From Giardia intestinalis (lineage: Eukaryota), in the NCBI GenBank assembly GCA_000002435.2, contig CM018792.1: a stretch of DNA of 64,000 nt. One strand, written 5' to 3'. The notes under the pieces are model-generated. The model saw only the letters and a program-made list of their open reading frames with translations, searched no databases and was not told where the DNA came from. Of the stretch, positions 27,813 through 64,000 are shown piece by piece. Position numbers and translations under genes: made by a program. Position 1 is the first letter of the stretch; each line of letters opens with the position of its first letter.

Positions 27813-28580
27813 TTACAGGACACCCACTCCCGTGTAGATATTACGTTCTAAGTACTTCATAACCGTCTCCAACTCACGGGTAAGCATGCCGGCGTTCTCG
27901 GTGAACTCTGCCCTCTCCTCCTCAATTGCGCGATTAAGGTCGGAGAACCCAGCAACAATCGTCTCGCGGCACTCAAAGAGGCCACGCTTGTGTCTCTCGA
28001 CAAGGGACTTGATCTCATCCTTGTACGACGCAATCACGGAATGGTAGGCGCGCTTCGATGACTCAATGGACTCAATGAGGCGCATAAAGTCCTTCTCAAA
28101 CTTCCCCCTGATGTTGTCCACACGTAGCTCGCGGTCATCGATTGCGGCGTTGAGCTTCTCAGCGAGGCCCTCCATCGCGGTTCCATACTCTTTGCGGAAC
28201 TCCTCGATATCCTGCTGCCTGCGGAGCACCTGCTCGTTGACCGCGTCGTAGAGGTGCTGGTACCTCTCGAGCATCGCCTGGAATTGAACCTGGGTCTCGC
28301 TCGTGTGCTGCTCGATCAGATTGTTGAGGGCAGTGACGTGATTTGTGATGTGCTCATCCAGCATCTTGTCCATTGCGTGGCTCGCCTCGGCGCGCTGGAG
28401 CGTCTGCTTCTGGATGAGGATGTCAAGATCCTTCACGGCCTGGTGGAGCAGCTGGAGTCTCGATTCTAGGGTATGTTTCTGGTCGTTGTACGAGAGCTCG
28501 AACTCTACCATGAACTCGGAAGTGTGCGAGTCGATGACATTGAGCCTAGACTTCGTGGGGTCGGCGCGGACGGAGAACAT
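27813..28580 (-). CDS. SF-assemblin / giardin-family striated-fibre coiled-coil protein (delta-giardin / SALP-1-like, not beta-giardin itself).
   Basis: 255-aa all-helical protein. The segment AVKDLDILIQKQTLQRAEAS aligns with the beta-giardin segment AIAHLDRLIQTESRKRQAS. Length and segmented coiled-coil layout are typical of SF-assemblins. Initiator GGGAGTTAAAAATG. Confidence 0.55.
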   Translation of the reverse strand: MFSVRADPTKSRLNVIDSHTSEFMVEFELSYNDQKHTLESRLQLLHQAVKDLDILIQKQTLQRAEASHAMDKMLDEHITNHVTALNNLIEQHTSETQVQFQAMLERYQHLYDAVNEQVLRRQQDIEEFRKEYGTAMEGLAEKLNAAIDDRELRVDNIRGKFEKDFMRLIESIESSKRAYHSVIASYKDEIKSLVERHKRGLFECRETIVAGFSDLNRAIEEERAEFTENAGMLTRELETVMKYLERNIYTGVGVL

Positions 28581-49064: not shown

Positions 49065-50138
49065 ATGGCTGCCCCAAATGAGATAGATGTACTGAGACGC
49101 GAGGTAGCACGCTTGCTCCACGAGAAAATTAACGCTTACATGGAGCCAGTTCATTTGGACAAGTATACACTGGGGACTGATCTTGCAACCATTGAAGATA
49201 TGTATACGGCAATATCGTGCCTGCGTCGTCATGTACTCGAGGTAGATGCCCGCACCAATGAAAGGATAGAAGAGAATGCACAACAACTAGCTGCAGACTA
49301 TCGGTTATTCAATGAGCTGGCATCTCGGGCCAAGGATACCATTTCTGCCCTTACTGCCCAAAAGGAAGAAGTGGACGCACGCGAGGCTACACTGTGCACA
49401 TTAGAAAGCACTCTCCTGAGCCGGCTTCTATCTACTGAGGCGTACCTGACCGCTAGAGCAAAGGTGGCCGAAGCACTCGAAAGCGCCTATAAAGAGCAAT
49501 TTACCGGAGTAATAGAAATGTATGCAACTCTCTTGGGATCCTTTCGTGCTGCAGAGAAGAAGTTAGAGCGTCTCTCCTATGAAAATGCGCTGCTGCGTTG
49601 CGATAACCGGAATCTTATGAATGAGGTTGCCATGCTACACACGGATCGTGATGCAGCGCAAGAAAAGGCCGCGAACACAATGACTATGTATAGCGAGCTA
49701 GGAGGGCGGCTATCTACGCTGTTAAATCAGTGGTCGAATTATCGCACACAGGATGGCTTTAGTGTTCCAGACACGGCTGCGAAGTTACAAAGCATAAACA
49801 GCAATGTTGAAGAGCTGCGAAGAGAGGTCGCTATTGTAGTGTCAGATATGCAACGCACCATTACAGATCAGGAGGCAATTATTGCCGCTCTGACAAAAGA
49901 GCTGGACGAATTGCAGAACAAAGGGCTGGAAGCGAAGATAGAGACTACTAAGCTAAACTTCTTAGAGACAGAGAACAGCAGACTAATGAAAGAGCTAGCG
50001 TCTGCAAGGTGTTCCTCAATGGACTCTGGATCCTCCCATATGCATTTGAGCGTCGCCAATGCATCAACTCAGACCACAGAGCAATCAAGAGCACAGCACA
50101 CAGATGACAATTGTGGTGCTGTCGATGTTGTCTCATGA
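49065..50138 (+). CDS. Hypothetical coiled-coil protein.
   Basis: The track start at 48999 is a TTG, and the first ATG is at 49065 (MAAPNEIDVLRREVARL). Continuous heptad repeats throughout. GTTTTAAAAACC element about 40 bp upstream. Confidence 0.6.
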   Translation: MAAPNEIDVLRREVARLLHEKINAYMEPVHLDKYTLGTDLATIEDMYTAISCLRRHVLEVDARTNERIEENAQQLAADYRLFNELASRAKDTISALTAQKEEVDAREATLCTLESTLLSRLLSTEAYLTARAKVAEALESAYKEQFTGVIEMYATLLGSFRAAEKKLERLSYENALLRCDNRNLMNEVAMLHTDRDAAQEKAANTMTMYSELGGRLSTLLNQWSNYRTQDGFSVPDTAAKLQSINSNVEELRREVAIVVSDMQRTITDQEAIIAALTKELDELQNKGLEAKIETTKLNFLETENSRLMKELASARCSSMDSGSSHMHLSVANASTQTTEQSRAQHTDDNCGAVDVVS

Positions 50139-50834
50139 GTATTTGACACCATCATGAATATAGGCAATGTATGGAGCCGGCCACGCTGTCGCGCAAACAA
50201 GACAAGATAAATTATCGTCATGAGAAAGTAGTTGACGCACGCAGTCAAAGTGTGCACACGCTCCGCAAGGGCAGACGACTCCAAAGCCGACGTTGGTATT
50301 ACAATATATGCAATTACACCTTAAGGGTTGTCTGTCCAATATATAGTCTTGCATTTCTAACAAGAATCTAAGAGTAGGAAAACAGTGTGGGTGTCTGAGT
50401 CTATCCAGTATTTCGTGGTTTGGTAACACAATATTATTCTCTCCAGTAAACGACGCATTCAGAAAATGCGATTGCGTCAATTCGAGAACTGCGTTCGTTA
50501 TCTCAGGAGTGATGATAAGCAGGGCGGATGGTAATGAGTCAAGAAGTTTATCGACCAATGCTTTGACATCGGCTTTTATGCACAGCCATGAAAGCTTTCG
50601 AATATCCGAAGACAGTAGTATATTATTGGAGCTACCATCCATATTGATAGGATATTTTCGTTGCTGAATAAGCACAACTAAGCGCTGCTCGGGACCAAGA
50701 TGGCTGGGGGGCTCACTGACCACTTTGGCTACATATCCCATTAATTGAAGTGCCTTATTTGCTTCTTCCACATCACTTTCGGTGTAGTTATCCATGTTAA
50801 GAGAGCCTAGCTCTAAAAGATAACGGGCTAACAT
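50133..50834 (-). CDS. Small protein with a C-terminal C4HC3 (PHD/RING-variant) zinc finger, Nse1-like in layout.
   Basis: C-x2-C-x9-C-x-C-x4-H-x2-C-x14-C-x2-C arrangement in CNCIYCNTNVGFGVVCPCGACAHFDCVRQLLSHDDNLSCLVC. Its ATG directly abuts the stop of the upstream gene. Confidence 0.5.
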   Translation of the reverse strand: MLARYLLELGSLNMDNYTESDVEEANKALQLMGYVAKVVSEPPSHLGPEQRLVVLIQQRKYPINMDGSSNNILLSSDIRKLSWLCIKADVKALVDKLLDSLPSALLIITPEITNAVLELTQSHFLNASFTGENNIVLPNHEILDRLRHPHCFPTLRFLLEMQDYILDRQPLRCNCIYCNTNVGFGVVCPCGACAHFDCVRQLLSHDDNLSCLVCATAWPAPYIAYIHDGVKYS

Positions 50835-53800
50835 TTATTCCCTCTCCATCTCCCCTCCCTCCTGGAGGCCCAGAAGAGCGGCGAGGACGTCGTCGAAGGC
50901 GAGGCGTGTGTGCGTCGGGTCGGGGAGCTGGGAGCGGACCTGCACGGGCCCCTCGGCAAGGCCTGCCTCTCCGCTGCCCAGCCCCGAGACGGTGATCGTG
51001 TGCCCGGCCAGCGCCAGGCCCTCGACGGAGCCCAGCGTACGGTACCGCCGCTCTCCGTGTGCAGGGAGTAGTCGGGCCCGGGACGGAGCCCACAGCCCCC
51101 GCTCTAGCGTCACAGGGGGCACATCAGTGTGATTTCCGTAGTTAATCTGATGGTAGGCCTCCCAGAGCACCTTAGGTCCGTAGAGGTGAGAAGCCCACAT
51201 CATCGGTGTCACCCTAGAAGGCCCGGGGGCTAGGGTGGGCTCTGCTCTGATGGCCTCGAGCGCCTCCGCTGACTGGATGGCCATGGCCCGTAAGGGATCG
51301 TTAGAAAAGCCCTCCAGCGCAAGGACGTCTTCTGCAAGCATTACCCTTCCGGATGCACGCCCTCGCCTCCGCCGCTTCCGTGTTGAAGCATGGGCATTTG
51401 CGACCAACGGCTCGTGCTCCAGTAGTCGGTCACGTAGCCGCTGCAGACCTGCCTGTACCCGTCGGAGGTGACGTGTGTGCTGGTAAGTGTTTTGCTGTGC
51501 AACAAAGTCAAAATCGCGGCTGCTCGTCAAGGATTGTACCCTATGGATGCACGACGGGATGTATTCTATTATCTCGGTTTGTCCTAAGTTAAGCTCATCT
51601 AGGCCGTCCCTTGGATTATTGCCCCGAGTGTGTCTGTGAGGAGCCGCCGTCCAGCCACGCTGAGTCCAGCCTTGCCCGGAATCCATCCCCGATGATGATA
51701 GCGCGCTGCTATGGTTATCTTCTGAATCAGAAGACAGCTCAGCGACAGATAGCTTTGGGTTGCGGCGCACCTGGTGCTTACTAGGGGGTATAGATATCAA
51801 GTCCATGGATTGGCTGAAGATGGTTGCGATCCGTTCCCTCAAGCGCGTTTGTAGAAAGCTACAGACAAAGGCCCGCACGGAGCAGTCTGGAAGAAGTGTG
51901 AGATAAATAAGGAGAGCGTGCTTCATTGAGAGCCTTCGAGGTAGATAGCCGTCCAAGCTTCTAATCTTGCCCTCTACATTACCATCCAGGGAAAGCTTAA
52001 GGAATTGAAGGTTATGTTCTGAATCGTTTTCTTTTGACAAGAGCGCCTCTTCTATGTGATCGGTTGATAGCAATGGTGTTACATTGGATCCCATGCTTTG
52101 TTTGGCCAATCCAATAAGGCGCAAGATAGAAGCTTCAGCTACGAGGTTGTCTCGTCTGTTGGGTGTTTCCTCGCCCAAAAACGATGCACACAAATCTCTA
52201 TAGCTTATAGATAGCGTCGCCCCTGCAGACGCTTGCTTTGTGTCCATCTTGCCAGCTTGCATATCGGTGGTAGATTGCGCTTTAATAGAGCTTCCTCCGG
52301 ACTTGCATAAGCATGCCTTGCATGTTGAATATGCACGGTCTACACAAAGATCTGTTTCATCCATAGCGACCATATTGCAGAAGTAACAAGGACACAGTGG
52401 CCTGATCGTCAACGACACAGTAGAAGGGGTTCCATGTACACAGCCCTCAGGCCAAGTACAGGACGCGACAAACGATACCGATCTCGCCTCCATGCCGTCA
52501 AGAAGGAGTCCGTTATGTTGTGCCTGAGAAGTGCGCAGGAGAATGTTATTGAAGCGCAAAATCATCTGACAAATAGCTTTGTAGTATGCGTGCGCAGATG
52601 GAATATCCAAGCAAACATGATCATGAGTTTGGAGAAGAGTCTCCTGAGTGCATGCTCGCATGTGTTCTAAAAGGGAATCATAAAAAAAGGTAGCTGTAGT
52701 GAAGTGCTGGTAGGTATAGAGTCGATCTAGCACGAGTGGCATAAGATAGCGAAGCTTTTCTTCCATGGAAGTAAGTGTGTAGAATGCATGGCTTCCACCC
52801 TTTAACTCTATAAGAGCCCTTATCGCATGAGGAAAGTTACTTTCGAAGCCAGTAAGTTTCATCCCTGGACCTGTAGTAAGAGGAGGGTGGCAAAACAAAT
52901 CAGAAAATTCGTTCATACACCTCTGGGCAACAGCTTCTAAGATTCTTGGTGTAGTTGGCGCTGAAAATACTTGTTTGTTTGGGATGTCCTTTTCAAGGCC
53001 ACCGACCTGGTCCTGCTCCGGCAACGATTCTAAATCCAAGAAACCAGGTTGAGCGTCTTTTAAATTATAGACTCCTTTTTCAGCGAGCTCATAGACTGAT
53101 GTGGGTTTAGCTGTGTCTACATGGAAAGACTCCACAAAGCTAGATTCTTTTCCTTGAGCATCCTTGGCTGTGAAGACATCCACAGCAGAAAGAATATCAT
53201 GCATGCTCTTTGAAGCACTGATCGCCTCATTGATTTGTCCTAAAAGCTCGTTTGCTGGTAGTTCTGGCAATGCTGTGACATTGCCTCCAAAGCTGTTGAA
53301 GACATCACAGACAATCCCCCTGATCCCGCAAGTTAGTGACTGGGCCAGGTATACGTCTTCTGGTGTAGCAAAGTGCTCCTGGGATAGAGACCCAAATACT
53401 TTGCACTCTATAAATTGTGAACAAAGTCGTAGAAAACTAGCAGACTTGGACCAGGGTCCCATGAAAAGCTTTTCGATAACATCGAGCCAGTGCTCGTATG
53501 CTGAGTGGACGTAAGTAAACATCGTCGAGGTAAGCAGTCGGTGGGAGGCATAGTTTCGAACGGTGTCGCAGGCTTCCATATCCTGAGTGTAATTCCTAGA
53601 CCTCTTAGAGCCGTATTGCTCTGCTCCTTCCTTTGCATGTTCTTCCCGTTGGACCCTTGACAAAGCGCCATACGCCTTGTGCTCAGAGATGTCATCAGCT
53701 ATGACATAAATATCGCTAGCATAACGAGCAAAGTATTCTGGTTCAGGGTAGATTGTGACCATCACTCTGCGAGTGCTAGGATCTGGCAAGACAAAGTCAA

Positions 53801-54521
53801 AATGGCAGAATCGCGTTTCTATTTGAGGACTCAAAAGCCTTACAAACTTTCCAGAGAGAAGAAATGCACTTGCCGATGTACTGTGCTCATAATAGTATGT
53901 CGTTCTATCTTGAGAAAGCTCCTCACTACTTAGAGACAAGGCATCCTCAATTGCGGAAAAAACTGAAGCGTTAAGCCACGTGTCGTCCATATGAGTTGCA
54001 AGACAAGAAACCGGCGCATGCACTCTTGACGATAAGGAGTGTGCAGCACTGTGCTCATGTATCCGCTCGAGCGCTTCCATTATCACATGACGCCGAATGA
54101 ATGCTGCATCGGAAATGTCCTCCTCTGACGATTCCGAGTCCTCATTAGCCGCTTTTTCTTCCAGAAGCTCCAGAAAAAGAGGCGGTGAACATGATAACTC
54201 GGCAGTCAAAAATCCAGAAAGGCAGCGCCTGTAAGCATGGCCGTCTAAGCACGGGTCTGACGAAAAAATATTCACTCCCTTAGGCAAACAACCCCTAGGA
54301 TCGTCAAAATTCAGCCGCACTCGATGACTAGAATCGAAGCCACTGCTGTACATGAACTGCTGTGCGTACTTAAGACCAAATAAAGGAACATAAATCAGAC
54401 TGCTGGGTTCTGTTTCATTGCTTGGTAAAGTAGAGTCACCTAGCGCCATCCCGTGATTTGTAGGGCTATGCATCGGTGCTGCAGGCACTAAGGTATCATG
54501 GAAACCACTTTGTGGGCCCAT
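50835..54521 (-). CDS. Large hypothetical protein (1228 aa) with a GC-rich, R/A/G/L-rich C-terminal 220 aa.
   Basis: ATG-initiated long ORF with no recognisable catalytic motifs. Internal Cys cluster CPCYFCNMVAMDETDLCVDRAYSTCKACLC. Confidence 0.7.
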   Translation of the reverse strand: MGPQSGFHDTLVPAAPMHSPTNHGMALGDSTLPSNETEPSSLIYVPLFGLKYAQQFMYSSGFDSSHRVRLNFDDPRGCLPKGVNIFSSDPCLDGHAYRRCLSGFLTAELSCSPPLFLELLEEKAANEDSESSEEDISDAAFIRRHVIMEALERIHEHSAAHSLSSRVHAPVSCLATHMDDTWLNASVFSAIEDALSLSSEELSQDRTTYYYEHSTSASAFLLSGKFVRLLSPQIETRFCHFDFVLPDPSTRRVMVTIYPEPEYFARYASDIYVIADDISEHKAYGALSRVQREEHAKEGAEQYGSKRSRNYTQDMEACDTVRNYASHRLLTSTMFTYVHSAYEHWLDVIEKLFMGPWSKSASFLRLCSQFIECKVFGSLSQEHFATPEDVYLAQSLTCGIRGIVCDVFNSFGGNVTALPELPANELLGQINEAISASKSMHDILSAVDVFTAKDAQGKESSFVESFHVDTAKPTSVYELAEKGVYNLKDAQPGFLDLESLPEQDQVGGLEKDIPNKQVFSAPTTPRILEAVAQRCMNEFSDLFCHPPLTTGPGMKLTGFESNFPHAIRALIELKGGSHAFYTLTSMEEKLRYLMPLVLDRLYTYQHFTTATFFYDSLLEHMRACTQETLLQTHDHVCLDIPSAHAYYKAICQMILRFNNILLRTSQAQHNGLLLDGMEARSVSFVASCTWPEGCVHGTPSTVSLTIRPLCPCYFCNMVAMDETDLCVDRAYSTCKACLCKSGGSSIKAQSTTDMQAGKMDTKQASAGATLSISYRDLCASFLGEETPNRRDNLVAEASILRLIGLAKQSMGSNVTPLLSTDHIEEALLSKENDSEHNLQFLKLSLDGNVEGKIRSLDGYLPRRLSMKHALLIYLTLLPDCSVRAFVCSFLQTRLRERIATIFSQSMDLISIPPSKHQVRRNPKLSVAELSSDSEDNHSSALSSSGMDSGQGWTQRGWTAAPHRHTRGNNPRDGLDELNLGQTEIIEYIPSCIHRVQSLTSSRDFDFVAQQNTYQHTRHLRRVQAGLQRLRDRLLEHEPLVANAHASTRKRRRRGRASGRVMLAEDVLALEGFSNDPLRAMAIQSAEALEAIRAEPTLAPGPSRVTPMMWASHLYGPKVLWEAYHQINYGNHTDVPPVTLERGLWAPSRARLLPAHGERRYRTLGSVEGLALAGHTITVSGLGSGEAGLAEGPVQVRSQLPDPTHTRLAFDDVLAALLGLQEGGEMERE

Positions 54522-54808
54522 GTGTTTCTTACCTGAGACTCAGCTTTTTGATTCTGCGCTCAGTTGTCTCCTCCCTATTTGAATGGAGCCATGACTCTCT
54601 AGAATACCAAATTAAGAACAGCATTGGCTTTAGCTCTGTCTAGGACTGGTTGAATTCTAACAGTCATGGTCTTTCTAACATTTAGAGCTCTATAGCCTTG
54701 AACAAATTCTCGCATGTCTATACAACGGCCTGAAGATGAAGGACCATATACTATCTTGTTCGAGTTAAGTAATTCCAATCACTAATCCTGATGATCTCTA
54801 TTTGTTAG

Positions 54809-57349
54809 ATGTTGAATATACGTAGGTATCAGCGGCTGTTTACTGTAGAGAACAAAAGCAGATACAAAAAGCTATCGAGCCACATGTTATTGTTGTTGCT
54901 ACTTGTTATATCTATCTTGACAACTTCTGAAAGAGGAGAGCTCTGCCTTTTAGAATTACGGGAGGGGTATCAGTTGGACTCCACGACACTTGATCCAAAT
55001 TTTGTACGAGATCTTGGGGTTTTGGACTTGAAGGTTTTTGATTGTTATCACGAAATAGCTGACGAGCTCCAGGCTCATCCCGAACTTGAAAAGAGTTTAA
55101 AAGAGCAATACTTACAACATCTTCGAAGCCAAGCTGCTGTCAATAAAGTTTATTGTGACGACTTTTTCGATACAACAACTCTCCTTTATCATATTAATGA
55201 CCAAACAGAGGACGCAGAACCACTAGATCATCTTCACCTTATAAACATCTTTCGATCTGATAACCTTACGTTAATTCATCCTGATGTCACCGGCCGACGA
55301 ATTAAGCTTTCGTTTCTGAACTCAGGGATTTCTAGGACATGCACCCAACTAACTCTCAACGAAGAATATTCCATAAACTGTGGCGGCTTTAATGCATCTC
55401 TCTTTACTGAGGATGCACCCGGGACAATTGCGTTAACCCTTGCTGCAGCCCACATGTCTGGAGGCACCAGTGGGGTAGCGAGAAACGCTCAGGTCATTGA
55501 GAGAACGGTGTTCAGACCTAAACTGGTTGATTCGGAGACATCTTCTGGGATGGTTGCTAGCTCAGAGTACGAAGCATCGTTTATTGATGTCTTGGAAGGA
55601 TATAGCATAAAGGGCGCATCATCCCGCTTCATGAACCTATTAGTTTGTATGTATGAGATTCCATTCGCTGCTCATCTAAGGGCTAAGAACTCTCTCTTGG
55701 AGTCTTTGGTTCCTCTTCTCAGAGATGTAATGGCAGCATCAGATGTTAAAGACTCTTGCAACGGCGATTTCATCCCTATTTTTAGTACAGGTGTAGGCGA
55801 AGAAGACGTCAATCTGTTAAATTATTTGCAATCCTCCGTAGCTGTGTATGTACAAAGCGTCATCCAGCAATCTCATGGAGAGGCTAACACAGTACTCACT
55901 GTCACCTATCCTAGCTCCAGAATCGGAGCGAATATCCTATTCAGCACCCCGTCTGGAACAGAAGACGCGCCATTGGTCGCCTTTGGATTTGATGACGTTG
56001 TTGCCCCCGTCGCATATGGGCCTGGGTCCGCCCTATCTATTGGAGCAGCTGCACTTGCACTAGTGGCCGATGCGTTTGCAGCTCTAGGGTATCAGATGAG
56101 CTTTTCTGATTTGCTTAACGTGATCGCCGAGACAGGGAGACACACAGAGCTAGGGCTTAACTCATCATACCTCGGCGACGCAAACGACTGGAAAAGAAAC
56201 GCTGCTGGATACCTCTTCTCGAATACATACGGGTTTGGACTGGTGGATGTGAATGCCTCCCTCTCTTATGTTAAGGCGCTTCGTCACATATATGGTTCAG
56301 AAAAAGACTACATGAGCCGTCAGGCTTGGGAAGAGCGATGTGGTAACTCTTGTAAGAAATTCCTGGGCTGCACAGGGGTGATTATTGATGATGGTGGGGA
56401 GTGTGCGGAAAAGTGTGGAGTCCATCGAATAGCAATCGATCGTTACATCCCTGATCGGATCACCCTCCAGAAGAAGCTATCTGTCGTGCAAAATAAGCGC
56501 ATAGAGAAAATAGGACTCCGAGTTGTTGCTTCAAACGGGTCGAATCTAAAGGAGCTGAGTATACTGGTGCAATCGCCAGAGGGAACCAGAGGCACGATGA
56601 TCCAGCCAGATTCTGTGACGACAGAAGATATTGAGGGTGTGTTTTTCTACTCCTACCTGTTCTACGGAGAGAACTCCGTTGGAGACTGGACTATTAACAT
56701 CCTTGACGTAGGATACCATCAGTCCATCTTCATCGAGTACATTGACATAGTGATCTTTGGGATCGAGTCTCACCTTACTATTGCATGGCCTAGTAGCATT
56801 GCCTTTAGAACGAATCCAGAAGAAAACGCAGAGACCGTTATGGAGAGGATGATGCGTACGCTTGGCTACAAGCGGCGCACAGCTTCTTCTTCAAACACTC
56901 TGTACTACACTTGCACAGTGCATCCTGTCACAAAAAGGTATACCCTGTTTTATCTGAGTGGAACGCAGACTGCTTGGAGAAGCGCACCTCAAACTCCTGT
57001 TACGATTGCCACAGATATACAGTTCAGTTGTACAGGCCCGAAGGTTAACGGAAAAGAGTTTGGTTTGACGCTAACAGGGCTAGTCGAACAGGAAGCATTC
57101 AGCGGCCAAGGGAGGCTTCTCTTTGTCCCGTCTGGGATTACGGAGCTCGACCGTACCACACTTCGCGAAGATGTGTTTGTCTCAAACAGCATCAGGGTCA
57201 CATATTCACCAGAAGAGGACGGGGGTTTGCCTGATGAAGAAGGCGACGTGTCCTCTGAGGCTCGATACAGACCCCGCTTGCTAGCTGCTACTGTGACAGG
57301 CCTATGTGTGCTAGCTGCCGCCTTTCTTGGGGGAGCATTCAAGGAGTAG
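54809..57349 (+). CDS. Kexin/subtilisin-like proprotein-convertase-like protein with a P-domain-like C-terminal region and a C-terminal membrane anchor. The catalytic motifs are divergent.
   Basis: YGFGLVDVNASLSYVKAL matches the subtilase C-terminal YGFGllDA motif. PGSALSIGAAALALV aligns with GTSASAPLAAGIIAL (the catalytic-Ser region). AHMSGGTSGVA may be a degenerate His box. WTINILDVGYHQSIFIEYIDIVIFG is P/Homo-B-like. N-terminal MLLLLLLVISILTTS signal, C-terminal TM LLAATVTGLCVLAAAFLGG. The in-frame ATG at 54884 is an alternative start. Confidence 0.55.
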   Translation: MLNIRRYQRLFTVENKSRYKKLSSHMLLLLLLVISILTTSERGELCLLELREGYQLDSTTLDPNFVRDLGVLDLKVFDCYHEIADELQAHPELEKSLKEQYLQHLRSQAAVNKVYCDDFFDTTTLLYHINDQTEDAEPLDHLHLINIFRSDNLTLIHPDVTGRRIKLSFLNSGISRTCTQLTLNEEYSINCGGFNASLFTEDAPGTIALTLAAAHMSGGTSGVARNAQVIERTVFRPKLVDSETSSGMVASSEYEASFIDVLEGYSIKGASSRFMNLLVCMYEIPFAAHLRAKNSLLESLVPLLRDVMAASDVKDSCNGDFIPIFSTGVGEEDVNLLNYLQSSVAVYVQSVIQQSHGEANTVLTVTYPSSRIGANILFSTPSGTEDAPLVAFGFDDVVAPVAYGPGSALSIGAAALALVADAFAALGYQMSFSDLLNVIAETGRHTELGLNSSYLGDANDWKRNAAGYLFSNTYGFGLVDVNASLSYVKALRHIYGSEKDYMSRQAWEERCGNSCKKFLGCTGVIIDDGGECAEKCGVHRIAIDRYIPDRITLQKKLSVVQNKRIEKIGLRVVASNGSNLKELSILVQSPEGTRGTMIQPDSVTTEDIEGVFFYSYLFYGENSVGDWTINILDVGYHQSIFIEYIDIVIFGIESHLTIAWPSSIAFRTNPEENAETVMERMMRTLGYKRRTASSSNTLYYTCTVHPVTKRYTLFYLSGTQTAWRSAPQTPVTIATDIQFSCTGPKVNGKEFGLTLTGLVEQEAFSGQGRLLFVPSGITELDRTTLREDVFVSNSIRVTYSPEEDGGLPDEEGDVSSEARYRPRLLAATVTGLCVLAAAFLGGAFKE

Positions 57350-60300
57350 AGAAACCCATATCTTATACTGAGAAAGGCCGAAGAGAGGGTCTCAGATGCA
57401 GGTGAAAGGACCCTTCCTTCAAAGATACTCTAGTAACACTGGCGTAGACAGAAGCCAAGAAGGCTGAATCTAATTTGGATAGTTATGTCATTGTAACACC
57501 ACCCAATAGCTTGCTGAGAATTAGGACTTTGCCAGTGGGGTGTGTGGTTGTGCTTGAATTTGAGCCACCCGGAGTTGATGGTTAGACTACAAAGTAGTCG
57601 AGTTGAAGCTGTTACAACTCCAGCGTATGGGAAGAATGCAAGTGGGCGAGTTGATCACTCGTTAGCTGTTCTATCCTTGGCCAAACCACTTGGCCGTTCG
57701 CGTTCATCCTGTATATAAGATAGTGAATGCGTATGTAACCCTCAAGAAATGCTTTATGGGAGAAGCAGTGTAAGCGCATCGAGGAACAGAAGCACGGAGA
57801 CTTCTCTTAGCTACATCAAGCAAATGCTAAAGAGGGCTGCTAGTCGGAGAGTGCTTTTGGATCTGCAGTAGGATGACGAGCAGGCATCTCTCTTGTGGAG
57901 CCGTGTGATGCCCGTTATTTGGCATGCAAAGAAGATACCATCAGGCTTAGCCAGAAACAGCCGAACAGCCTTTCATATGGTCTACCGGAGTCATTCAATA
58001 CACAAAGACGAGGCACTGTCTCATTACCACAGCGGTCTTGACAGACCCAGGCGTGCAAATGCCAACAATGCAAGCGGGACAAGTACCATATCGATAGAGA
58101 CTTGGATCTCAAAAGCAAACAGAGAGCACCGACCGCTACAGCGTGTGCTTATGCTGTCATGTATCTAACACCAGTAAGTATAATTAGTAACAGGTCACTT
58201 GTAGGGAGTCATTGAATGCGGCGTAGCAGTGAGCGAAGGATCTAGCGTCTGCTGCTTGTGATGCTCAAATGGTGTAAGTGGTGTTCCTAGTCAGTAGACC
58301 TCCTCCAGAAATGGCAGATACCGGAGAATGTGTGACTAGTCGTGGAGGCCACGAACCGTGTACAGAGGCATCAAAGTTAGAAGACAGGCGTCTATGAGCG
58401 ACTCTTGTGAGTGTATCAATAAAGGAAAGGGCCAGGACACTGCTGGGTCTACCTGATGCGTCTAAGGCAGGAGAGATGGAAGAGCTGATAAGCACGTGGC
58501 TCACTACAATAAGTACGGCAGACATAGTGCAGTTCAAGAGGATGCAAACTACTGCTGCATATGCTAGGCTGTGGAGTTACGCCTATGAGCACCCTGTGAA
58601 CCGAGAGCTTGCATCTCTTCCTACAGCGTAGCGGGTGGAAGAGGCACGAGCTTGAGCAAGGCCAGAATGCTAGGGCCACAGAACGAGCGGCAGCTGGGAG
58701 AGAAGCTTGTGGAGGGTGATGCATAGCTCTCTGCTAGCTAGGAAGCGGCGTGGCCCACTGACGGGACGACTGGACGTAACCACGTTAAGCTTGATAGGCA
58801 CGTTGAGCGCAGCGTTTTATGGCCTCTGAATACCGCACTGGTGTATGTGCTAGACAAGGTTTACCGGTATACCTTGAAGACAGGACTACTTGGTTGGCTG
58901 AAGCTGGGAAAGCGACCAATCCATTCCCATCAGAGGTGAATGCTTCCCCATGGATACACCTGAGACCGCACCCTCCTGTGGCCGGACAGGAGAGCAGACA
59001 ATCGTGGAAACGTGTGCGAACAACCCATGGGTGCTGTCCAGCCATCTCTCTAGAACACGGTTATTTGCTAGCAGGCGGTACAGCGGGGAAGGAGACCGCC
59101 GTGCGTTGCTCCTGCCCGGCTAGATACGTCCCTTGCTCGCGGCACGGGCCCTGAAGGGGGCGTTGTCATGTGGCCTCTCGCTGAGCTAAAAAACTAGGTA
59201 TGTCTGTGATCGTGGCTATCTCCCCAGAGTAGCACCTCCGTGCACAGGCCCTATTGTGTTCGTCGCTTAGCCCGCTAGACAAGGGGCTCAAAGGCCTTTT
59301 GAAGCGTCTTCTAGCCTCTGACATATCGCAAGTACTATAAGCACGAACAGCACACGGAACGACGGTGGCACACATGGACAGTGTACTATGTGCGTAGAAG
59401 AGAGCAGCCGTCCTCACATGTGCACGATGACACTAGCCAGTACGCCTTAGCTATTTTGCCGGCGACCATTTCCCCTTGTGCTTGCCACGATGGGAGAGCA
59501 AATGCACCTGGCGGGTTGGCAGCTGCTGTGCTGGCCTTCTTGAGCACTAGGCACATCCCTGCATGATGTTCAGTGCGAGCCAAATCCCACGATTGGGACT
59601 ATCGTTATTAGCAAGGCGAGGTAGCTCGTTACAGCGGGCGCGCCTTTGATCACGTCCGCGATCTCTGTGCATACAGATGCTCCCCTACGCCTGCTGGCGA
59701 TAATCGTGCACTCAGACAAGTACCACAAGGCGCTCCACTGTCCTCAAGGGAGACCAACGGCTTATGCATACGGCGCAACGGAGGCCTATGCGGTGAGTGC
59801 TACAGGGCCAGCTACTGACCAGTCTGGATCACAGTCCGCTCCTCAAGTACCCTTATACGTGCTTGCGTGCTCGTTGCCAGTGTTGAGCGAGACTGCAAAG
59901 GGTTTTGCTTCGTTGTGCTTATCTTACAGTGCTCAGTCCTTGGAGTACGCTTCACCGAAGGGGGATGTTAACTAGATGTGCAGAAGGTTGGCCGTGCACA
60001 GAGGTTTCTAGAAAGCCGGTTCACACAGAGGAGGCAGGGGCGATAAGCAGGCCAGCTATGTAAGACTAGCGTTAGAGGGGCTAGCTGCCAACCAAGATTG
60101 TAGCGGGATATCTGTAGTGCCTGATGGCTTCTAAGCATGGCAAAGCCGTGAGGCCTACGGACAAGCTGGAGGCTGCTCTTTGTTTTTATGCATTTGTAGC
60201 AGAACAGGTTCTTGAAAGTCTGCTCATTCCGGAGCTGAAAGAGTCCATCTCCTCTCCCCACATGGCACGGGGCTCCATTGTAGATGTGTACTATACAAAC

Positions 60301-63023
60301 CGATAGCAGCCAGCGTATCTGCTGTCCAAACGAACCTGGCTGCGCCTTCCTGTGGCAGGCGGGCCACTATCGAACCTCTCAATCTGCACGACTGCCCTGT
60401 ATCACCGTGTTGAACAGTCTTTTCATCTTTGGTCAGAGGATTGCTACACGTGTTACAAGCTTGGCTCGTCCATCAACCAGGTGGTGGCTCAGCGCTCGCT
60501 CTTGCTTGTCTCCCAATCCAGACGCCAACGCTTGCCGTTGTACTCAGATCAGTATCACCTATACATCTGCTTCCACCATCCTTCAGAGCACATGCTCTAC
60601 AGCCGAAGGCCGATGCCCCCTATTACGAAGAGGAGTGTCCCCCGACTTACTCCACCTTAAGTAGGCCTACTAGGCACACTCTTGTCTGCTTCCTTACCTT
60701 CCTGCCTGCAGGCCGCCACGTGGTTCTCCTTCGTCGCTCCGCTTCACACATGTGTCGCGTCATCGAGCGTTCGTGACCTCAAGTGACCACCCGGAATCAG
60801 ACCCTTCGCACTATACTACAGGCAGCTCAGCATAGGCATGACCCATAAGCAACGCTGGTCCTCTTGGCGCGCCCACCAGCTGAACGCTGTTACTCTGGCC
60901 CAACCAGCCAGCAAGAGGCCTTAGCTCGTGCTCCAAGCTATCCACGAAGCATGGCTACTCTAGGGGGTTCCCGAGCACAGTCAACAGCCACAACGTATCT
61001 CAATCGGTCACAGGGTAGCCACTTTCATCGGAAATCCATGTGGGGGACACATCTTTGGCAGCAGCTGATCACCTTTATCTTCGAGTCTCTACTAGGCCAT
61101 AGCTAGCACCAACCGGAGTGGCAGGGTCAGCACGGCCTGGCCCAGCAGTGCCATCTGTCCTCACCGGCCCATAGAGTGTGCTCGACTCCACAACCTTATG
61201 ACTAGTTCTATAGCACGCTCTGGGTCCGATCGGTCAGGTGGCAGGACTATCAACTCTCGGGTGGCTGTGCTAAAACCTACTCTGGAGCGAGGCCACTGCA
61301 GCAGGGGCTAGATCCATCACACCAGAAGCGATCACCGGCTTCTCATCTACCGGATGGAAGCTGCAATAATGGCTGGGTAAGGAAACCAGCCTGGCAAGGT
61401 ATGACCGGCGGAGCGGATCCAAGCTCATCAGCAATCTACAATGCACACCACTCAGGCTCTATGGGTAGGCATAGCATTCGCTTGGTTCATGGTGATGGGC
61501 ATCGGTGGGTGTCCTTACGACACAAGGACAGTGACTAATGGACCACAACGGCTGTTCATTCATGTGACCCTCTAGCCACTAACATAGGCAGGCCTTCTAC
61601 AAGGCCCTTGCCTGGATCGTATCCGAGATATGTCCTTGCGGTATCTCTTGCTGTCCAGGTGCGTGTGACTGGACCTTCTACTTTTCACACTGGCTCGTGG
61701 ACGTCGGCGCTTTGGCCTCTGGTGGAGCTATAATAGAGATCTGGCATAGGGTGTGGTGCCGTTAGCTGAGCCTTATCATGCTCCCATGCACGACGGGAGA
61801 GAGCCGGTCCTCCTTGCACTGTGCAGGGAGAGAGGGGCATCGAACTACACTACACTCTATACCGTGTGGCGCGGTTTGCAGTGCAAGGGACAGAATGCCT
61901 GTACTGAGTGCCCATTTGTCCAGGCCAGCTACAGATCGGGCTGGAGGTGACAAGCGAGCGCTGCTCGATTCCTTATTAGCAGGTGGGAGCCTGACCGCCC
62001 TAATACTTGCATGAGGCCAAAGGAGCGCCGGATCATGAGCCTGGCCAACACCTGGCGGACCAGCATAGACACCTCGAGCTCCTATTCCTTCTCATTGACG
62101 ACAGCTTGATACGGAGAGTCTTTGTCGTCCCGCACACACAGATGCTCCCATTAGCGATAGCATCGGGGTGATTTGGGAGTAGTAGTGGAGTTCTCATTCA
62201 GCTGGCCCAGAAGACACACAGTTTGAGCAGCGTTTCCTCCTTGTTCAAGTTGAGAGAACCGACCTACGCCTTCGAACTCCATCTGGTACCTTTCATGCAC
62301 TACGGGATCTTGATAATATTCACTGCAAAGGGTTAGAACTGGAGCCTGTGTGCCCACCAGGTGGAAGCATTATACACGCTAGTCAATACCGATTCGCGCA
62401 TTCACGGACCTTGTGATCTTCCCAGGCCCCGCAAAGATCCACCTACGAGTGTCCTTCACCAGGTAGTCGGGCAACAGGCGTGACCAAGGGATAGGGATGC
62501 TGTATGGGCATCGGTGCATGGGCCAGACCCGCACAGAGAGGGCACAGGGGCTGGCTCTTCAGGGGTGCAGAGGTACTGGGAGAGGAACTAGTGGCAGACC
62601 TGCCACAAGAGGCCGGGTTCCCTCGATTCTGCAGGAGGCAGGTACACAGGGTTGCGTCGCTGTCTGTTTCTGGACTTTTTATCTATGCCTACACAGTGGA
62701 ATGATAAGTTTTTAGTCAAACTACGTTAGAAAGTCCCTATAGGTGTAAGCTATATACGCTACATTAAAGTACACATGATAGATACATTTATTACTTAAAT
62801 GAGTGCATGTGCTTTCCTTTTGCAGACGAATTTCCAGTAATTCTATGACATGTTAACAGAAGAGACAATCATCATTCAATCTAAAGTTAACTTCACATTA
62901 TGTTTCATTCCTCATATATTGCCAATTACATGTGCTGATTTCTATGAGCTGGATGTCTTTTGAAGATATGCAGCACTGACTCACAGCTCTACATAGATCG
63001 TTACTTGGCTACTCTTAGTCTCA
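57350..63023. other. ORF-poor block of about 5.7 kb (longest ORF 126 aa) between the subtilase-like gene and the VSP/HCMP gene. It is moderately GC-rich internally, with an A/T-rich final 320 bp.
   Basis: The six-frame track shows only short, mutually overlapping ORFs with no domain content. Everywhere else in the window, intergenic spacers are 355 bp or less. Confidence 0.5.
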
Positions 63024-64000
63024 ATGTTTGATAAACTCATTTTTGCGAGCTTGGCTTTACAATTAACTTGGGCAACACAAGTAAAGCGGATGGTGAGGTC
63101 TGCCACATGTGATTCAACTACCAGTGGATCAACCAAATGTGCAGCAGAAAAGTGCAATGTATGGATTGGAGGAAAGGATTATTGCTCGCAATGCTCTACT
63201 GATGCTGAGCTTCTTATTGATGGAGGATGTGCCCCAACTACTTCAGACCTAGCCAAAAAGTGTATAAGTGATAACAAAGGTAAATGCAGTTCCTGCGGAG
63301 ATGGCTACTTTCTTCACAAAGGTGGGTGCTACAAATTTGGTACTGCACCAGGAAATGCCGTGTGTACTGAACCATCTGCACCCGGAGATTCTCTTCCCGC
63401 AGGGGTGTGCACAACTTGTGGATCAGGGTACTTTAAGAATCCAGCAGAAAGCGCGGCAAGCACACCGCCATGTATTGCTTGCAATGACACAGCTGGCAAT
63501 AGCGGAAACACTGGACTCGTTGGATGCGGTACTTGTGACCCTCCTGTTTCTGGACAAGCAACATGCACATCATGTCTAGATGGATTTTTTGGAATAGGTG
63601 AGGGCACTGTTACTTGCACTGAATGCACAGGAGAATGCAAAACATGTAAGGGTGGTGCAGACCAATGTACATCTTGTAAAACATCATCAAAATACTTGAA
63701 AATTACAGACTCCGTCGCTGAAACCGGCGAATGTATTGATCAAGGACAATGTACAGAGACTCATTTCGCTATGGTAGATGGTGGTATAAATATGTGCTAT
63801 CTCTGTAATACTACTGATAAAGGTGGGAAAGTTGGATGCAGAACATGCACAAAAAGTGGTACAGTAACATGCAAGACGTGTCTTGATGGATTCTTTGGTA
63901 CTACTGATTGTGTAGCGTGCCATGAAGACTGCTTGACATGCAAAATCGAAGCAGCAAAATGTACTTCTTGTAAGGCAGATACTAAGCCATACTTTAAGGA
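63024..64000 (+). CDS. Cysteine-rich surface protein of the VSP / high-cysteine-membrane-protein type. It is 5'-complete and truncated at the 3' end by the window.
   Basis: ATG at 63024 followed by the signal peptide MFDKLIFASLALQLTWA. More than 25 CXXC motifs (CSQC, CSSC, CTTC, CTSC, CKTC...), GGCY and repeated GFFG motifs. Reading frame open to the window end, so it is absent from the ORF track. Confidence 0.7.
   Translation, partial: MFDKLIFASLALQLTWATQVKRMVRSATCDSTTSGSTKCAAEKCNVWIGGKDYCSQCSTDAELLIDGGCAPTTSDLAKKCISDNKGKCSSCGDGYFLHKGGCYKFGTAPGNAVCTEPSAPGDSLPAGVCTTCGSGYFKNPAESAASTPPCIACNDTAGNSGNTGLVGCGTCDPPVSGQATCTSCLDGFFGIGEGTVTCTECTGECKTCKGGADQCTSCKTSSKYLKITDSVAETGECIDQGQCTETHFAMVDGGINMCYLCNTTDKGGKVGCRTCTKSGTVTCKTCLDGFFGTTDCVACHEDCLTCKIEAAKCTSCKADTKPYFK

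What the first reader, a model, noticed from the sequence alone, without database searches (positions are those of the whole stretch)
50838..51490. Abrupt GC-rich segment (~220 codons) forming the C-terminus of the 1228-aa ORF
The last ~650 nt of the minus-strand gene 50835-54521 are conspicuously G+C-rich, with runs such as GGGCCCCTCGGCAAGGCCTGCC and CGGGCCCGGGACGGAGCC. They encode an R/A/G/L/P-rich tail, whereas the rest of the gene and window sit near 48-50% GC. All three overlapping frames stay open longer than usual here, for example the shadow ORFs 50797-51093(-) and 50908-51132(+). The tail could be a compositionally distinct domain of foreign or recent origin. Alternatively, it could be a separate downstream gene fused into the ORF call, or a recombination/gene-conversion tract.
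Basis: seen in the sequence. Interest (0 to 1): 0.5.

Follow-up and report, generated by a model that had tools for sequence, protein, structure and literature searches.

The report
GC-rich gene end at duplication edge
The GC-rich last 650 bases of this Giardia gene are genuine, ancient coding sequence whose DNA became GC-enriched in place, right up to the edge of an old inverted gene duplication. This most likely records GC-biased gene conversion, not foreign DNA or a mis-joined gene.

Summary
Window 50838-51490 is 65.4% GC against 48.4% for the window (z = 5.2, the highest 650-nt stretch in 64 kb).

The window is Giardia intestinalis WB, and the gene is GL50803_0015084, a hypothetical protein. 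The tail is real coding sequence:
- It is in frame and under purifying selection in two other G. duodenalis lineages. Shifted frames look neutral and the shadow ORFs are not conserved.
- Its motifs are present in the G. muris orthologue and in more distant relatives. It is therefore neither foreign nor recent, and not a fused gene.

The GC step is shared by all G. duodenalis lineages examined and is absent in G. muris. It affects all codon positions, synonymous codon choice and amino-acid content. Third-position equilibrium GC is still about 0.67 in the tail against 0.49 in the body, so a GC-favouring fixation bias persists.

GC collapses from about 0.7 to about 0.37 within 50 nt. This is exactly at the outer edge (window 50842) of an inverted duplication of at least 7.8 kb (15084/9948 and 60596/32097). 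The duplication predates the assemblage split, yet its copies are identical within a genome, which indicates concerted evolution.

Best reading, at moderate confidence: GC-biased gene conversion acting at the arm edge. Interest is modest.

The parts
50838..51490 (-). GC-rich coding tail (codons ~1011-1228) of GL50803_0015084
   Evidence: 65.4% GC; GC1/GC2/GC3 are .74/.51/.71 against .52/.43/.46 in the body. dN/dS is 0.16-0.31 in this frame only.
51491..51800 (-). Ramp zone where GC rises from baseline (0.47) to 0.53-0.57
   Evidence: 200-nt and 150-nt profiles. The same ramp is seen in L001, and more weakly in L004.
50835..54521 (-). GL50803_0015084, a 1228-aa hypothetical protein (whole gene including stop)
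   Evidence: Exact match to KAE8303587.1 / XP_001708293.1. Orthologues: P0002 (71-72% identical), G. muris P0005 (33%, E 1e-64), and weaker P0006-P0009.
51087..51212 (-). Most conserved block of the tail (aa 1104-1145, VTPMMWASHLYGPKVLWEAYHQINYGNHTDVPPVTLERGLWA)
   Evidence: 82-84% identity among G. duodenalis lineages. Invariant columns are shared with G. muris. A related motif occurs at the C-terminus of P0006 and P0007.
50842..58635 (.). Minimum extent of one arm of an inverted segmental duplication; the outer edge is at 50842, 5 nt before the stop codon
   Evidence: Contigs carrying the paralogue GL50803_0032097 are 100% identical to the window from 58635 down to exactly 50842 and then diverge. 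The paralogue pairs 15084/32097 and 9948/60596 are in the same WB contig.
50133..50834 (-). GL50803_009952 (233 aa, RING-like C-terminus); its ATG abuts the TAA of 15084; unique flank of copy A
   Evidence: The TAAATG junction is conserved in L001. GC is 0.43.
54809..57349 (+). GL50803_009948 (846 aa, weak proprotein-convertase P-domain hit), divergent neighbour lying inside the duplicated arm
   Evidence: The paralogue GL50803_0060596 is 100% identical over 821 aa.
54051..54131 (-). PEHE-like motif (SSEEDISDAAFIRRHVIMEALERIHEH), below the Pfam threshold
   Evidence: PF15275 E = 0.016, 16.2 bits against a cut-off of 34. The same weak hit appears in 4 of 6 homologues.

Best explanation
**What it is.** The GC-rich segment is the genuine, ancestral C-terminal module of a diplomonad-specific protein, GL50803_0015084 of Giardia intestinalis WB. 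Its DNA became GC-enriched in place, in the G. duodenalis lineage, after the split from G. muris and before the assemblages diverged.

**Nature of the enrichment.** It is a regional nucleotide-level pressure. It raises GC at all three codon positions, shifts synonymous codon choice for every amino acid, and has dragged the protein towards Gly/Ala/Arg/Pro and away from Phe/Tyr/Met/Ile/Asn/Lys.

**Why it persists.** The pressure still operates as a fixation bias at synonymous sites: AT-to-GC changes are favoured and GC-to-AT changes disfavoured.

**Where it stops.** The tract ends to within 50 nt at the outer homology edge of an old inverted duplication. The arms of this duplication are kept identical within a genome by gene conversion.

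**Most likely mechanism.** GC-biased gene conversion concentrated in the last 0.7-1 kb of the arm. Conversion cannot extend past the edge of homology, which would explain a ramp on the inside and a cliff on the outside.

**Shown:**
- the tail is real, ancestral coding sequence;
- the enrichment is lineage-specific;
- all codon positions are affected;
- synonymous-site rates remain GC-biased;
- the duplication exists, is old, and shows concerted evolution;
- the tract edge coincides with the duplication edge.

**Inferred:**
- the bias is caused by conversion rather than by selection;
- conversion is focused at the arm edge.
For: **1. Real coding sequence.**
- dN/dS in the tail is 0.31, 0.16 and 0.16 for the three pairs. 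Shifted frames give 1.0-2.1.
- Alternative frames are interrupted at different places in each lineage.
- There is no Rfam hit, and the RNA fold z-score is -1.7.

**2. Ancestral.** G. muris P0005 aligns through the tail with many invariant columns. The motif is also present in P0006 and P0007.

**3. The step is conserved in G. duodenalis and absent in G. muris.**
- Tail against body GC is 65/47% in WB, 63.5/47% in L001 and 59/48% in L004.
- The G. muris tail is 49-54% against 51% for its gene.

**4. Nucleotide-level pressure.**
- GC3 rises for every amino acid.
- Arg CGN:AGR is 20:5 in the tail against 30:23 in the body. Leu CTN:TTR is 27:2 against 72:37.
- At columns aligned with G. muris, GARP/FYMINK is .40/.10 in WB against .27/.23 in G. 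muris in the tail. The two species are equal in the body. Directional replacements are 14:3, p = .013.

**5. Ongoing fixation bias.**
- Synonymous divergence between lineages is large (dS 0.6-1.7), yet GC3 stays high in all three.
- Polarised third-position rates, tail against body: W>S .52 against .32 (p = .0009); S>W .26 against .33 (p = .036).
- GC3* is .667 against .491, and .63-.70 on each branch.
- Recent within-assemblage-A changes are AT-biased in the tail (5 S>W: 2 W>S), as in the body (9:3). The mutational input is therefore not GC-biased.

**6. Link to gene conversion.**
- The paralogues 15084/32097 are identical over 1225 aa and 9948/60596 over 821 aa in WB.
- Both DH copies share all 3 A2-specific differences in the 420 nt where they can be compared.
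- The same junction (tail end joined to the 567-aa gene flank) is seen in lineages 20-33% divergent, so the duplication predates them.
- The homology edge has moved about 35 nt in the B-like lineage.
- GC drops from .68-.78 to .34-.40 at the edge in both copies.
- The tail is about 3x more variable than the body within assemblage A (1.69 against 0.59%, p = .011).

**7. Literature.** Giardia genes inside gene-conversion tracts are GC-enriched, median .541 against .488 (PMC12669663). In WB, 6.9% of the genome is duplicated, with multi-gene duplications up to 20 kb (PMC7000408).
Against: - The rest of the duplicated arm (gene body, 846-aa gene; at least 7 kb) sits at baseline GC (.47). Arm-wide conversion alone therefore does not raise GC, and the focus on the last 0.7-1 kb needs an extra, untested assumption: a break hotspot at the edge.
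- In copy A the homology edge coincides with the end of the gene. The cliff could simply mark the gene end.
- All-position parsimony counts give tail GC* of only .43-.53, with an S>W excess at positions 1 and 2. This may reflect known parsimony bias in GC-rich, saturated sequence, or a real decay of the GARP shift.
- SNP-direction counts are tiny (7 polarised changes in the tail).
- Near-identity of the copies in lineages other than WB and DH is inferred only from contig breaks and 30-36-nt overlaps.
- The inverted orientation is inferred from protein accession order.
- This is one locus. No genome-wide test was possible on whether other duplication edges carry GC tracts.
Confidence: 0.5

Rival explanations
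1. Adaptive composition. Selection on the protein favours an Arg/Ala/Gly/Pro-rich C-terminal module, and translational selection favours GC-ending optimal codons in this part of the mRNA. The position next to the duplication edge is coincidental, because the gene simply ends there.
For: - All 26 optimal codons of G. duodenalis end in G or C (PMC8393687).
- The tail is under purifying selection and contains a strongly conserved block.
- In copy A the cliff coincides with the stop codon.
Against: - Codon selection acts per gene, through expression level, so a switch within one mRNA is not expected. The body of the same gene has GC3 of .46.
- A nearby gene with high codon bias (27813-28580) has GC3 of .77 but overall GC of only .55 and normal GC1/GC2, unlike the tail.
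- The G. muris orthologue keeps the same conserved motifs without the GARP shift, so the composition is not needed for the fold or motif.
- dN/dS is not lower in the tail than in the body (0.16-0.31 against 0.12-0.15).
Confidence: 0.2
2. Local GC-biased mutation. An error-prone or biased repair, replication or transcription-associated process at this spot produces more AT-to-GC mutations, with no fixation bias.
For: - The enrichment affects all codon positions.
- Within-assemblage variability is about 3x higher in the tail than in the body, p = .011. This would fit a mutational hotspot.
Against: - Polarised recent changes in the tail are mostly GC-to-AT (5:2), as in the body (9:3).
- The long-term S>W rate at third positions is lower in the tail than in the body (.26 against .33). 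This fits a fixation bias better than a pure change in input.
- The 50-nt cliff at the homology edge in both copies is hard to explain by a diffuse mutational process.
- Counts are small.
Confidence: 0.15
3. A nucleic-acid-level function. The GC-rich stretch is kept because the DNA or RNA itself does something. Candidates are a nucleosome-positioning or insulating block between the 15084 gene and the abutting promoter of the next gene, a 3' mRNA structure, or an antisense transcript.
For: - The stop codon abuts the next gene's ATG (TAAATG). The next promoter and the 15084 poly(A) signal must therefore overlap coding sequence.
- The tract is conserved in position in three lineages.
Against: - No Rfam family matches.
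- The RNA fold is not unusual, z = -1.7.
- There are no internal repeats.
- No alternative-frame or antisense ORF is conserved.
- Synonymous sites in the tail have turned over (pS .43-.67), so what is kept is composition, not sequence.
- Copy B has a different downstream gene and a 118-nt spacer yet the same tract.
Confidence: 0.1
4. Foreign or recently acquired domain, or a separate gene wrongly fused into the ORF.
For: - The composition differs sharply from the rest of the gene.
- Databases contain stand-alone 'genes' made only of the tail: P0004 (125 aa) and P0012 (179 aa).
Against: - The tail is homologous to the C-terminus of the G. muris orthologue and of more distant relatives.
- There are no hits outside Giardia.
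- The ORF is continuous with the same end in the divergent L001 orthologue. The only interruption seen is a 1-nt deletion in L004, far upstream of the tail. Purifying selection acts in frame.
- P0004 lies at position 50 of a DH contig that starts inside the tail. P0012 comes from an 869-nt contig of the old WB assembly. Both are assembly fragments.
Confidence: 0.03

Closest known systems
GC-biased gene conversion (gBGC) tracts and hotspots, as described in yeast, mammals and birds, and in multigene families evolving in concert (established knowledge, cited from memory)
   Same: - GC is raised at all codon positions, including synonymous sites.
- Amino-acid content is dragged towards GARP.
- W>S fixation is favoured over S>W while the mutational input stays AT-biased.
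- The tract is kilobase-scale with a gradient.
- It is associated with sequences that undergo gene conversion.
   Different: - This tract is one-sided: a ramp inside and a cliff at the homology edge.
- It is confined to the last 0.7-1 kb of an arm of at least 7.8 kb that is otherwise at baseline GC.
- It occurs in a tetraploid, binucleate protist in which meiosis is debated.
- The bias of conversion itself was not measured here.
GC-enriched genes inside AI-to-AII gene-conversion tracts in Giardia duodenalis (PMC12669663)
   Same: - Same organism.
- Reported link between GC-richness and non-reciprocal gene conversion (median gene GC .541 against .488).
- Tract sizes of a few kb.
   Different: - That study concerns exchange between sub-assemblages and whole-gene GC. 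Here the signal is intragenic, older than the assemblages, and tied to a paralogous (inter-arm) duplication edge.
- I did not check whether 15084/32097 is among its 89 genes.
Multi-gene and inverted duplications of the WB genome (PMC7000408: 6.9% of the genome duplicated, duplications up to 20 kb, inverted VSP pairs)
   Same: - A multi-gene duplication of at least 7.8 kb, with 100% identical copies in WB.
- It was collapsed or fragmented in older assemblies.
- A Cys-rich VSP-like gene lies nearby (from ~62997).
   Different: - The paper does not describe this pair, its age, or any compositional feature at its edge.
- Here the same junction is traced in five divergent lineages.
PEHE-domain scaffolds (MSL1/KANSL1), considered for the protein as a whole
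   Same: A short acidic-Ser / 'SDxAFxxRH' helix motif near the N-terminus gives weak PF15275 hits in 4 of 6 homologues.
   Different: - All hits are below Pfam's gathering score (12-18 bits against 34).
- The motif is N-terminal rather than C-terminal.
- No other domain of those proteins is detectable.
- It has nothing to do with the GC-rich tail.

Membership tests
gBGC tract | GC enrichment at synonymous as well as non-synonymous positions, independent of amino acid | tested here: met
   GC1/GC2/GC3 are .74/.51/.71 against .52/.43/.46. GC3 is higher in the tail for all 15 amino acids tested, and the Arg and Leu codon families shift.
gBGC tract | Substitution process favours W>S and disfavours S>W relative to neighbouring sequence (equilibrium GC above the local background) | tested here: met
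   Third positions: W>S .52 against .32 (p = .0009), S>W .26 against .33 (p = .036), GC3* .667 against .491. Caveats: parsimony was applied to saturated sites, and all-position GC* is only .43-.53.
gBGC tract | Mutational input not GC-biased (polymorphism more AT-biased than fixed differences; W>S alleles at higher frequency) | tested here: inconclusive
   Polarised recent changes in the tail are 5 S>W: 2 W>S. The direction is right but n = 7. No allele-frequency data are available.
gBGC tract | Co-location with demonstrated recombination or gene conversion | tested here: met
   The tract lies inside, and ends at the edge of, a duplication whose copies evolve in concert. That conversion is more frequent in the tail than in the rest of the arm was not shown.
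Segmental duplication with concerted evolution | Two copies in one genome with distinct flanks | tested here: met
   GL50803_0015084 and _0032097, and _009948 and _0060596, are on the same 2.76-Mb WB contig. Both junction types are present in DH, in contigs 10 and 30.
Segmental duplication with concerted evolution | Paralogues within a genome more alike than orthologues between lineages that share the duplication | tested here: met
   - WB copies are identical (1225/1225 aa and 821/821 aa).
- DH copies are 419/420 nt identical and share 3 of 3 A2-specific sites.
- The same junction occurs in lineages 20-33% divergent.
- For the non-A lineages, copy identity is inferred only from contig breaks.
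Segmental duplication with concerted evolution | Inverted orientation of the two arms | not testable with these tools
   Inferred from the order of protein accessions: KAE8303587 and 588 on one side, 591 and 592 on the other. The second arm lies outside the window (no repeat within 48-64 kb), and the PacBio copy could not be fetched.
Horizontally acquired / foreign domain | Absent from sister lineages and similar to sequences of another clade | tested here: not met
   It is present in G. muris and more distant homologues. There are no hits outside Giardia.
Fused or mis-called ORF | Orthologues show a stop, frameshift or separate gene at the junction | tested here: not met
   The ORF is continuous in L001, DH, L013 and G. 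muris. The 1-nt deletion in L004 lies far upstream, at gene column 2231.
Overlapping or antisense gene, or structured RNA | Conserved alternative ORF, or RNA family or structure signal | tested here: not met
   Stops fall at different places in each lineage. Shadow ORFs match the codon-shuffle expectation. Rfam gives nothing at E <= 1. The fold z-score is -1.7.
PEHE-domain proteins (PF15275) | Score at or above Pfam's gathering threshold | tested here: not met
   16.2 bits against a cut-off of 34. The homologues score 12-18 bits.

The most novel reading that the evidence does not exclude
The tract is a fine-scale, one-sided footprint of GC-biased gene conversion pinned to the outer homology edge of an inverted duplication. 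That duplication has been kept identical within genomes throughout the radiation of G. duodenalis assemblages. If this is general, and other duplication edges in Giardia show the same ramp-and-cliff profile, it would have two consequences. First, it would show that conversion is GC-biased in a diplomonad. Second, it would provide natural recorders of ectopic conversion activity in an organism whose sexuality and recombination are debated.
Probability: 0.3. Interest if true: 0.55.

Novelty: new member of a known kind. Interest (0 to 1): 0.33.

Why it matters
- **Annotation.** The gene model is right. The tail is not an artefact, not foreign DNA, and not a second gene.
- **Giardia genome biology.** The locus combines three things in one place: an old duplication homogenised by gene conversion, a homology edge that has shifted between assemblages, and a sharply bounded GC tract with an ongoing GC-favouring fixation bias. 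If the link holds genome-wide, it would be direct evidence for GC-biased conversion in diplomonads. It would also offer a handle on how much non-allelic recombination goes on in a parasite whose sexual cycle is unresolved.
- **Protein evolution.** It is a clean example of nucleotide-level pressure reshaping the amino-acid content of a conserved protein module.
- **Caveat.** As a single locus, it is of modest interest.

Tried and rejected
- **Pfam.** The whole protein gives nothing at E <= 0.01. At E <= 1 the only hit is a sub-threshold PEHE match.
- **Solved structures.** A sequence search against the PDB found none.
- **Structure prediction.** AlphaFold2 on aa 958-1228 with a 3-sequence alignment gave pLDDT 38, which is unusable, so no fold search was run.
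- **RNA.** Rfam over 49.5-52.5 kb at E <= 1 found nothing, and the RNA fold is not unusual.
- **Repeats.** No tandem or dispersed repeats explain the composition.
- **Tail-only homologue search.** It found only a DH contig-end fragment misnamed as a kinase.
- **'Translocation in A2 isolates'.** I first read the loss of synteny at 50842 in DH this way. I rejected it once WB itself proved to carry the paralogue 32097 and DH proved to carry both junctions.
- **P0013 as an A1/A2 mosaic.** I suspected a breakpoint at the start of the tail. At nucleotide level it is a third A lineage with its own private changes. The A1-like to A2-like ratio does differ between body (4:8) and tail (8:1), but this is too weak to call recombination.
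- **Second arm.** It is not inside the window. The PacBio copy of the paralogue could not be fetched.
- **SNP density, A1 against A2 alone.** The difference is not significant (7/649 against 14/3031). It becomes significant (p = .011) only with a third lineage added.
Full report
**1. Observation**

Window 50838-51490 is 65.4% GC. The 64-kb window is 48.4% and the rest of the gene is 47.1%. Among all 650-nt windows (mean 0.484, sd 0.033) it is the maximum, z = 5.2, and the runner-up is 0.574. In 200-nt windows GC peaks at 0.75 (50900-51099).

The quoted GC runs, the R/A/G/L/P-rich translation and the shadow ORFs are all there.

The profile is asymmetric. Going 5'->3' along the gene (minus strand), GC ramps up from about 51800. 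It then collapses from 0.68-0.78 to 0.34-0.40 within 50 nt at 50842.

The long open shadow frames are a by-product of composition. Codon-shuffled tails give the same open lengths (81 +/- 12 codons against 84 observed). The alternative frames carry stops at different places in each orthologue. There are no tandem or dispersed repeats.

**2. What the locus is**

The ORF 50835-54521(-) is an exact match to GL50803_0015084 of Giardia intestinalis WB (KAE8303587.1), a hypothetical protein. Its neighbours are GL50803_009952 (233 aa, 50133-50834) and GL50803_009948 (846 aa, 54809-57349).

It has no Pfam family at threshold and no relatives among solved structures.

A full HMMER scan finds only six relatives:
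- a 72%-identical G. duodenalis orthologue (P0002);
- the G. muris orthologue (P0005, 33%, E 1e-64);
- four weak diplomonad-like homologues.

**3. The tail is genuine, ancestral coding sequence**

I obtained orthologous DNA from two divergent G. duodenalis lineages:
- L001, 74% nucleotide identity, probably B-like;
- L004, 71% nucleotide identity.

The evidence that the tail is coding in the annotated frame:
- The reading frame runs through the tail to the same end in L001, and to the end of the contig in L004. L004 has a 1-nt deletion about 270 codons upstream of the tail.
- Tail dN/dS is 0.31, 0.16 and 0.16 for the three pairs, against 0.12-0.15 in the body.
- The two shifted frames give 1.0-2.1.

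The G. muris protein aligns through the tail. Invariant residues are clustered in PMxWAxHLYxPxxxWxAYHxxNYxNxxD...LWA and in LPD. Similar C-terminal motifs occur in P0006 and P0007.

A tail-only search finds nothing outside Giardia.

The two stand-alone 'tail genes' in databases are assembly fragments:
- P0004 sits at the start of a DH contig that begins inside the tail.
- P0012 (old GL50803_32097) comes from an 869-nt contig.

'Foreign or recent domain' and 'fused gene' are therefore refuted. No RNA family or unusual RNA fold is present.

**4. The composition shift is lineage-specific, nucleotide-level and maintained**

Tail against body GC:

| Lineage | Tail | Body |
|---|---|---|
| WB | 65% | 47% |
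| L001 | 63.5% | 47% |
| L004 | 59% | 48% |

In G. muris the homologous stretch is 49-54%, against 51% for the gene.

In WB, GC1/GC2/GC3 are .74/.51/.71 in the tail against .52/.43/.46 in the body. GC3 is higher in the tail for every amino acid. Arg CGN:AGR goes from 30:23 to 20:5, and Leu CTN:TTR from 72:37 to 27:2.

At columns aligned with G. muris, the WB tail has GARP .40 and FYMINK .10, against .27 and .23 in G. muris. The body is equal in both species. FYMINK-to-GARP replacements outnumber the reverse 14:3, p = .013.

Synonymous sites have largely turned over between lineages (dS 0.6-1.7), yet GC3 stays high in all three. Whatever raises GC is therefore still acting.

Polarising changes on the three terminal branches gives these third-position rates:

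| Rate | Tail | Body | p |
|---|---|---|---|
| W>S | .52 | .32 | .0009 |
| S>W | .26 | .33 | .036 |
| GC3* | .667 | .491 | |

Parsimony is known to over-count common-to-rare changes in biased sequence, so this estimate is conservative. All-position counts give only .43-.53, with an S>W excess at positions 1 and 2. I cannot separate that excess from this bias.

Recent changes among three assemblage-A lineages (WB, DH, L013) are AT-biased in the tail (5:2), as in the body (9:3). The tail is about 3x more variable than the body (1.69 against 0.59%, p = .011). The pattern is AT-biased input with GC-biased fixation. That is the signature of biased gene conversion or selection, not of biased mutation. 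The SNP counts are small.

**5. The unexpected context: the tract ends at a duplication edge**

Contigs from DH and another A2-like sample match the window at about 99.3% down to exactly 50842, 5 nt before the stop. They then continue into a different gene of 567 aa.

This is not a translocation, for three reasons:
- WB itself carries the paralogue GL50803_0032097 (1239 aa). It is identical to 15084 over 1225 residues and has the alternative C-terminal extension.
- Next to it lies GL50803_0060596, which is 100% identical to 9948.
- The gene order (15084, 9948 ... 60596, 32097) implies an inverted duplication.

WB-like short-read contigs carrying copy B are 100% identical to the window over at least 7.8 kb (50842-58635). 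DH has both junctions. Its two copies are 419/420 identical and share all three A2-specific differences from WB in that stretch.

I traced the orthologues of the 567-aa flank gene in four more lineages (64-80% amino-acid identity). Every contig starts 100-150 nt upstream of that gene, with about 30-36 nt of tail end. This is the behaviour of a k-mer assembler at a repeat edge:
- L012's start overlaps L004's end by 36 nt.
- L011 and L015 have the same junction position as assemblage A.
- In the B-like L010 the shared sequence extends about 35 nt further, through the stop codon and the first 27 nt of the 233-aa gene.

The duplication is therefore older than the assemblages. Its copies are nevertheless identical within WB and near-identical in DH, which indicates concerted evolution by gene conversion. 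The homology edge has also moved in one lineage.

G. muris has neither this synteny nor the GC step.

The WB genome paper reports such multi-gene duplications in general (PMC7000408). A 2025 study reports that Giardia genes in gene-conversion tracts are GC-enriched (PMC12669663).

**6. Mechanism**

The best-supported reading is GC-biased gene conversion acting in the terminal 0.7-1 kb of the arm. Conversion between arms cannot pass the edge of homology, which gives the cliff. Variable tract lengths give the inward ramp.

Weak points:
- The remaining 7 kb or more of the arm is at baseline GC, so a focus at the edge (for example breaks in the adjacent AT-rich promoter region) has to be assumed.
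- In copy A the edge coincides with the gene end.
- This is a single locus.

Rivals:
- Adaptive composition plus codon selection. Optimal codons are GC-ending (PMC8393687). However, a within-mRNA switch, the GC1/GARP shift, and its absence in G. muris despite conserved motifs all argue against it.
- Local GC-biased mutation. The SNP directions argue against it, weakly.
- A DNA- or RNA-level element. No supporting signal was found.

**7. Verdict**

This is a new example of a known kind of phenomenon. Its position at the edge of an old, concertedly evolving duplication is neat and testable. Interest is modest unless the pattern generalises across Giardia duplication edges.

Noticed in passing
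window 57350-62997: About 5.6 kb with no ORF of 150 aa or more, in an otherwise extremely compact genome. GC is .53-.59. The open stretches have no Pfam hits and there is no Rfam family. It lies inside or next to the duplicated arm and could be degraded pseudogene or retroelement material.
   Followed up: partly
window 62997-64000 (+): A Cys-rich (CxxC-type, VSP/HCMP-like) ORF starts here and runs off the window end. The WB genome paper notes that VSPs often sit in inverted duplicated pairs.
   Followed up: no
window 50832-50837 (TAAATG on the minus strand): The stop codon of 15084 directly abuts the ATG of GL50803_009952, with no intergenic base. This is conserved in the B-like L001, where the second in-frame ATG is not conserved. 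The promoter of 9952 and the poly(A) signal of 15084 must therefore lie in coding sequence.
   Followed up: partly
L010:1-30 compared with L001:6327-6360; junction at window 50842: In the B-like lineage, the sequence shared by both copies extends about 35 nt further than in A, L011, L012 and L015. It runs through the stop codon and the first 27 nt of the 233-aa gene. The homology edge has therefore moved, as expected from a conversion event that overran the old edge.
   Followed up: partly
window 54051-54131 (-), 52356-52403 (-): Conserved family motifs elsewhere in the protein:
- an N-terminal PEHE-like helix (EEDISDAAFIRRHV), with weak sub-threshold PF15275 hits in 4 of 6 homologues;
- a central RPxCPCYFCN Cys motif shared by all homologues.
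This is a possible lead to function (an MSL1/KANSL1-like scaffold?), untested.
   Followed up: partly
L005:50-427 (DH contig AHGT01000010.1): The DH protein P0004, named 'Serine/threonine protein kinase, partial', is only the last 125 residues of the 15084 orthologue at the start of a contig. The old WB gene GL50803_32097 (179 aa) was likewise a fragment of copy B on an 869-nt contig.
   Followed up: yes
L004 around 2876 (gene column 2231): A 1-nt deletion splits the orthologue into 786-aa and 412-aa ORFs in this Logan contig. It is either an assembly error or a pseudogenised copy. The downstream part stays open and conserved.
   Followed up: no
window 50838-51490, compared with L001: Synonymous divergence between WB and L001 is lower in the tail (dS .64) than in the body (1.33). 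It is not lower against L004. This could reflect shared strong GC3 preference or a more recent common ancestry of the tail.
   Followed up: no
window 51294-51402 (L013/L014): A third assemblage-A lineage has 4 private changes within 108 nt of the tail, as many as in the entire 3-kb body. Its A1-like to A2-like site ratio differs between body (4:8) and tail (8:1). This is suggestive of mosaic ancestry but too weak to call.
   Followed up: partly
window 27813-28580 (-): A 255-aa gene with GC3 of .77 but overall GC of only .55. This is ordinary expression-type codon bias and a useful contrast with the all-position enrichment of the tail.
   Followed up: no
GL50803_15084 (literature): The protein was detected with a single peptide (MASCOT 22) in a mitosome-enriched fraction (PMC3044749). 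This is too weak to infer localisation.
   Followed up: no
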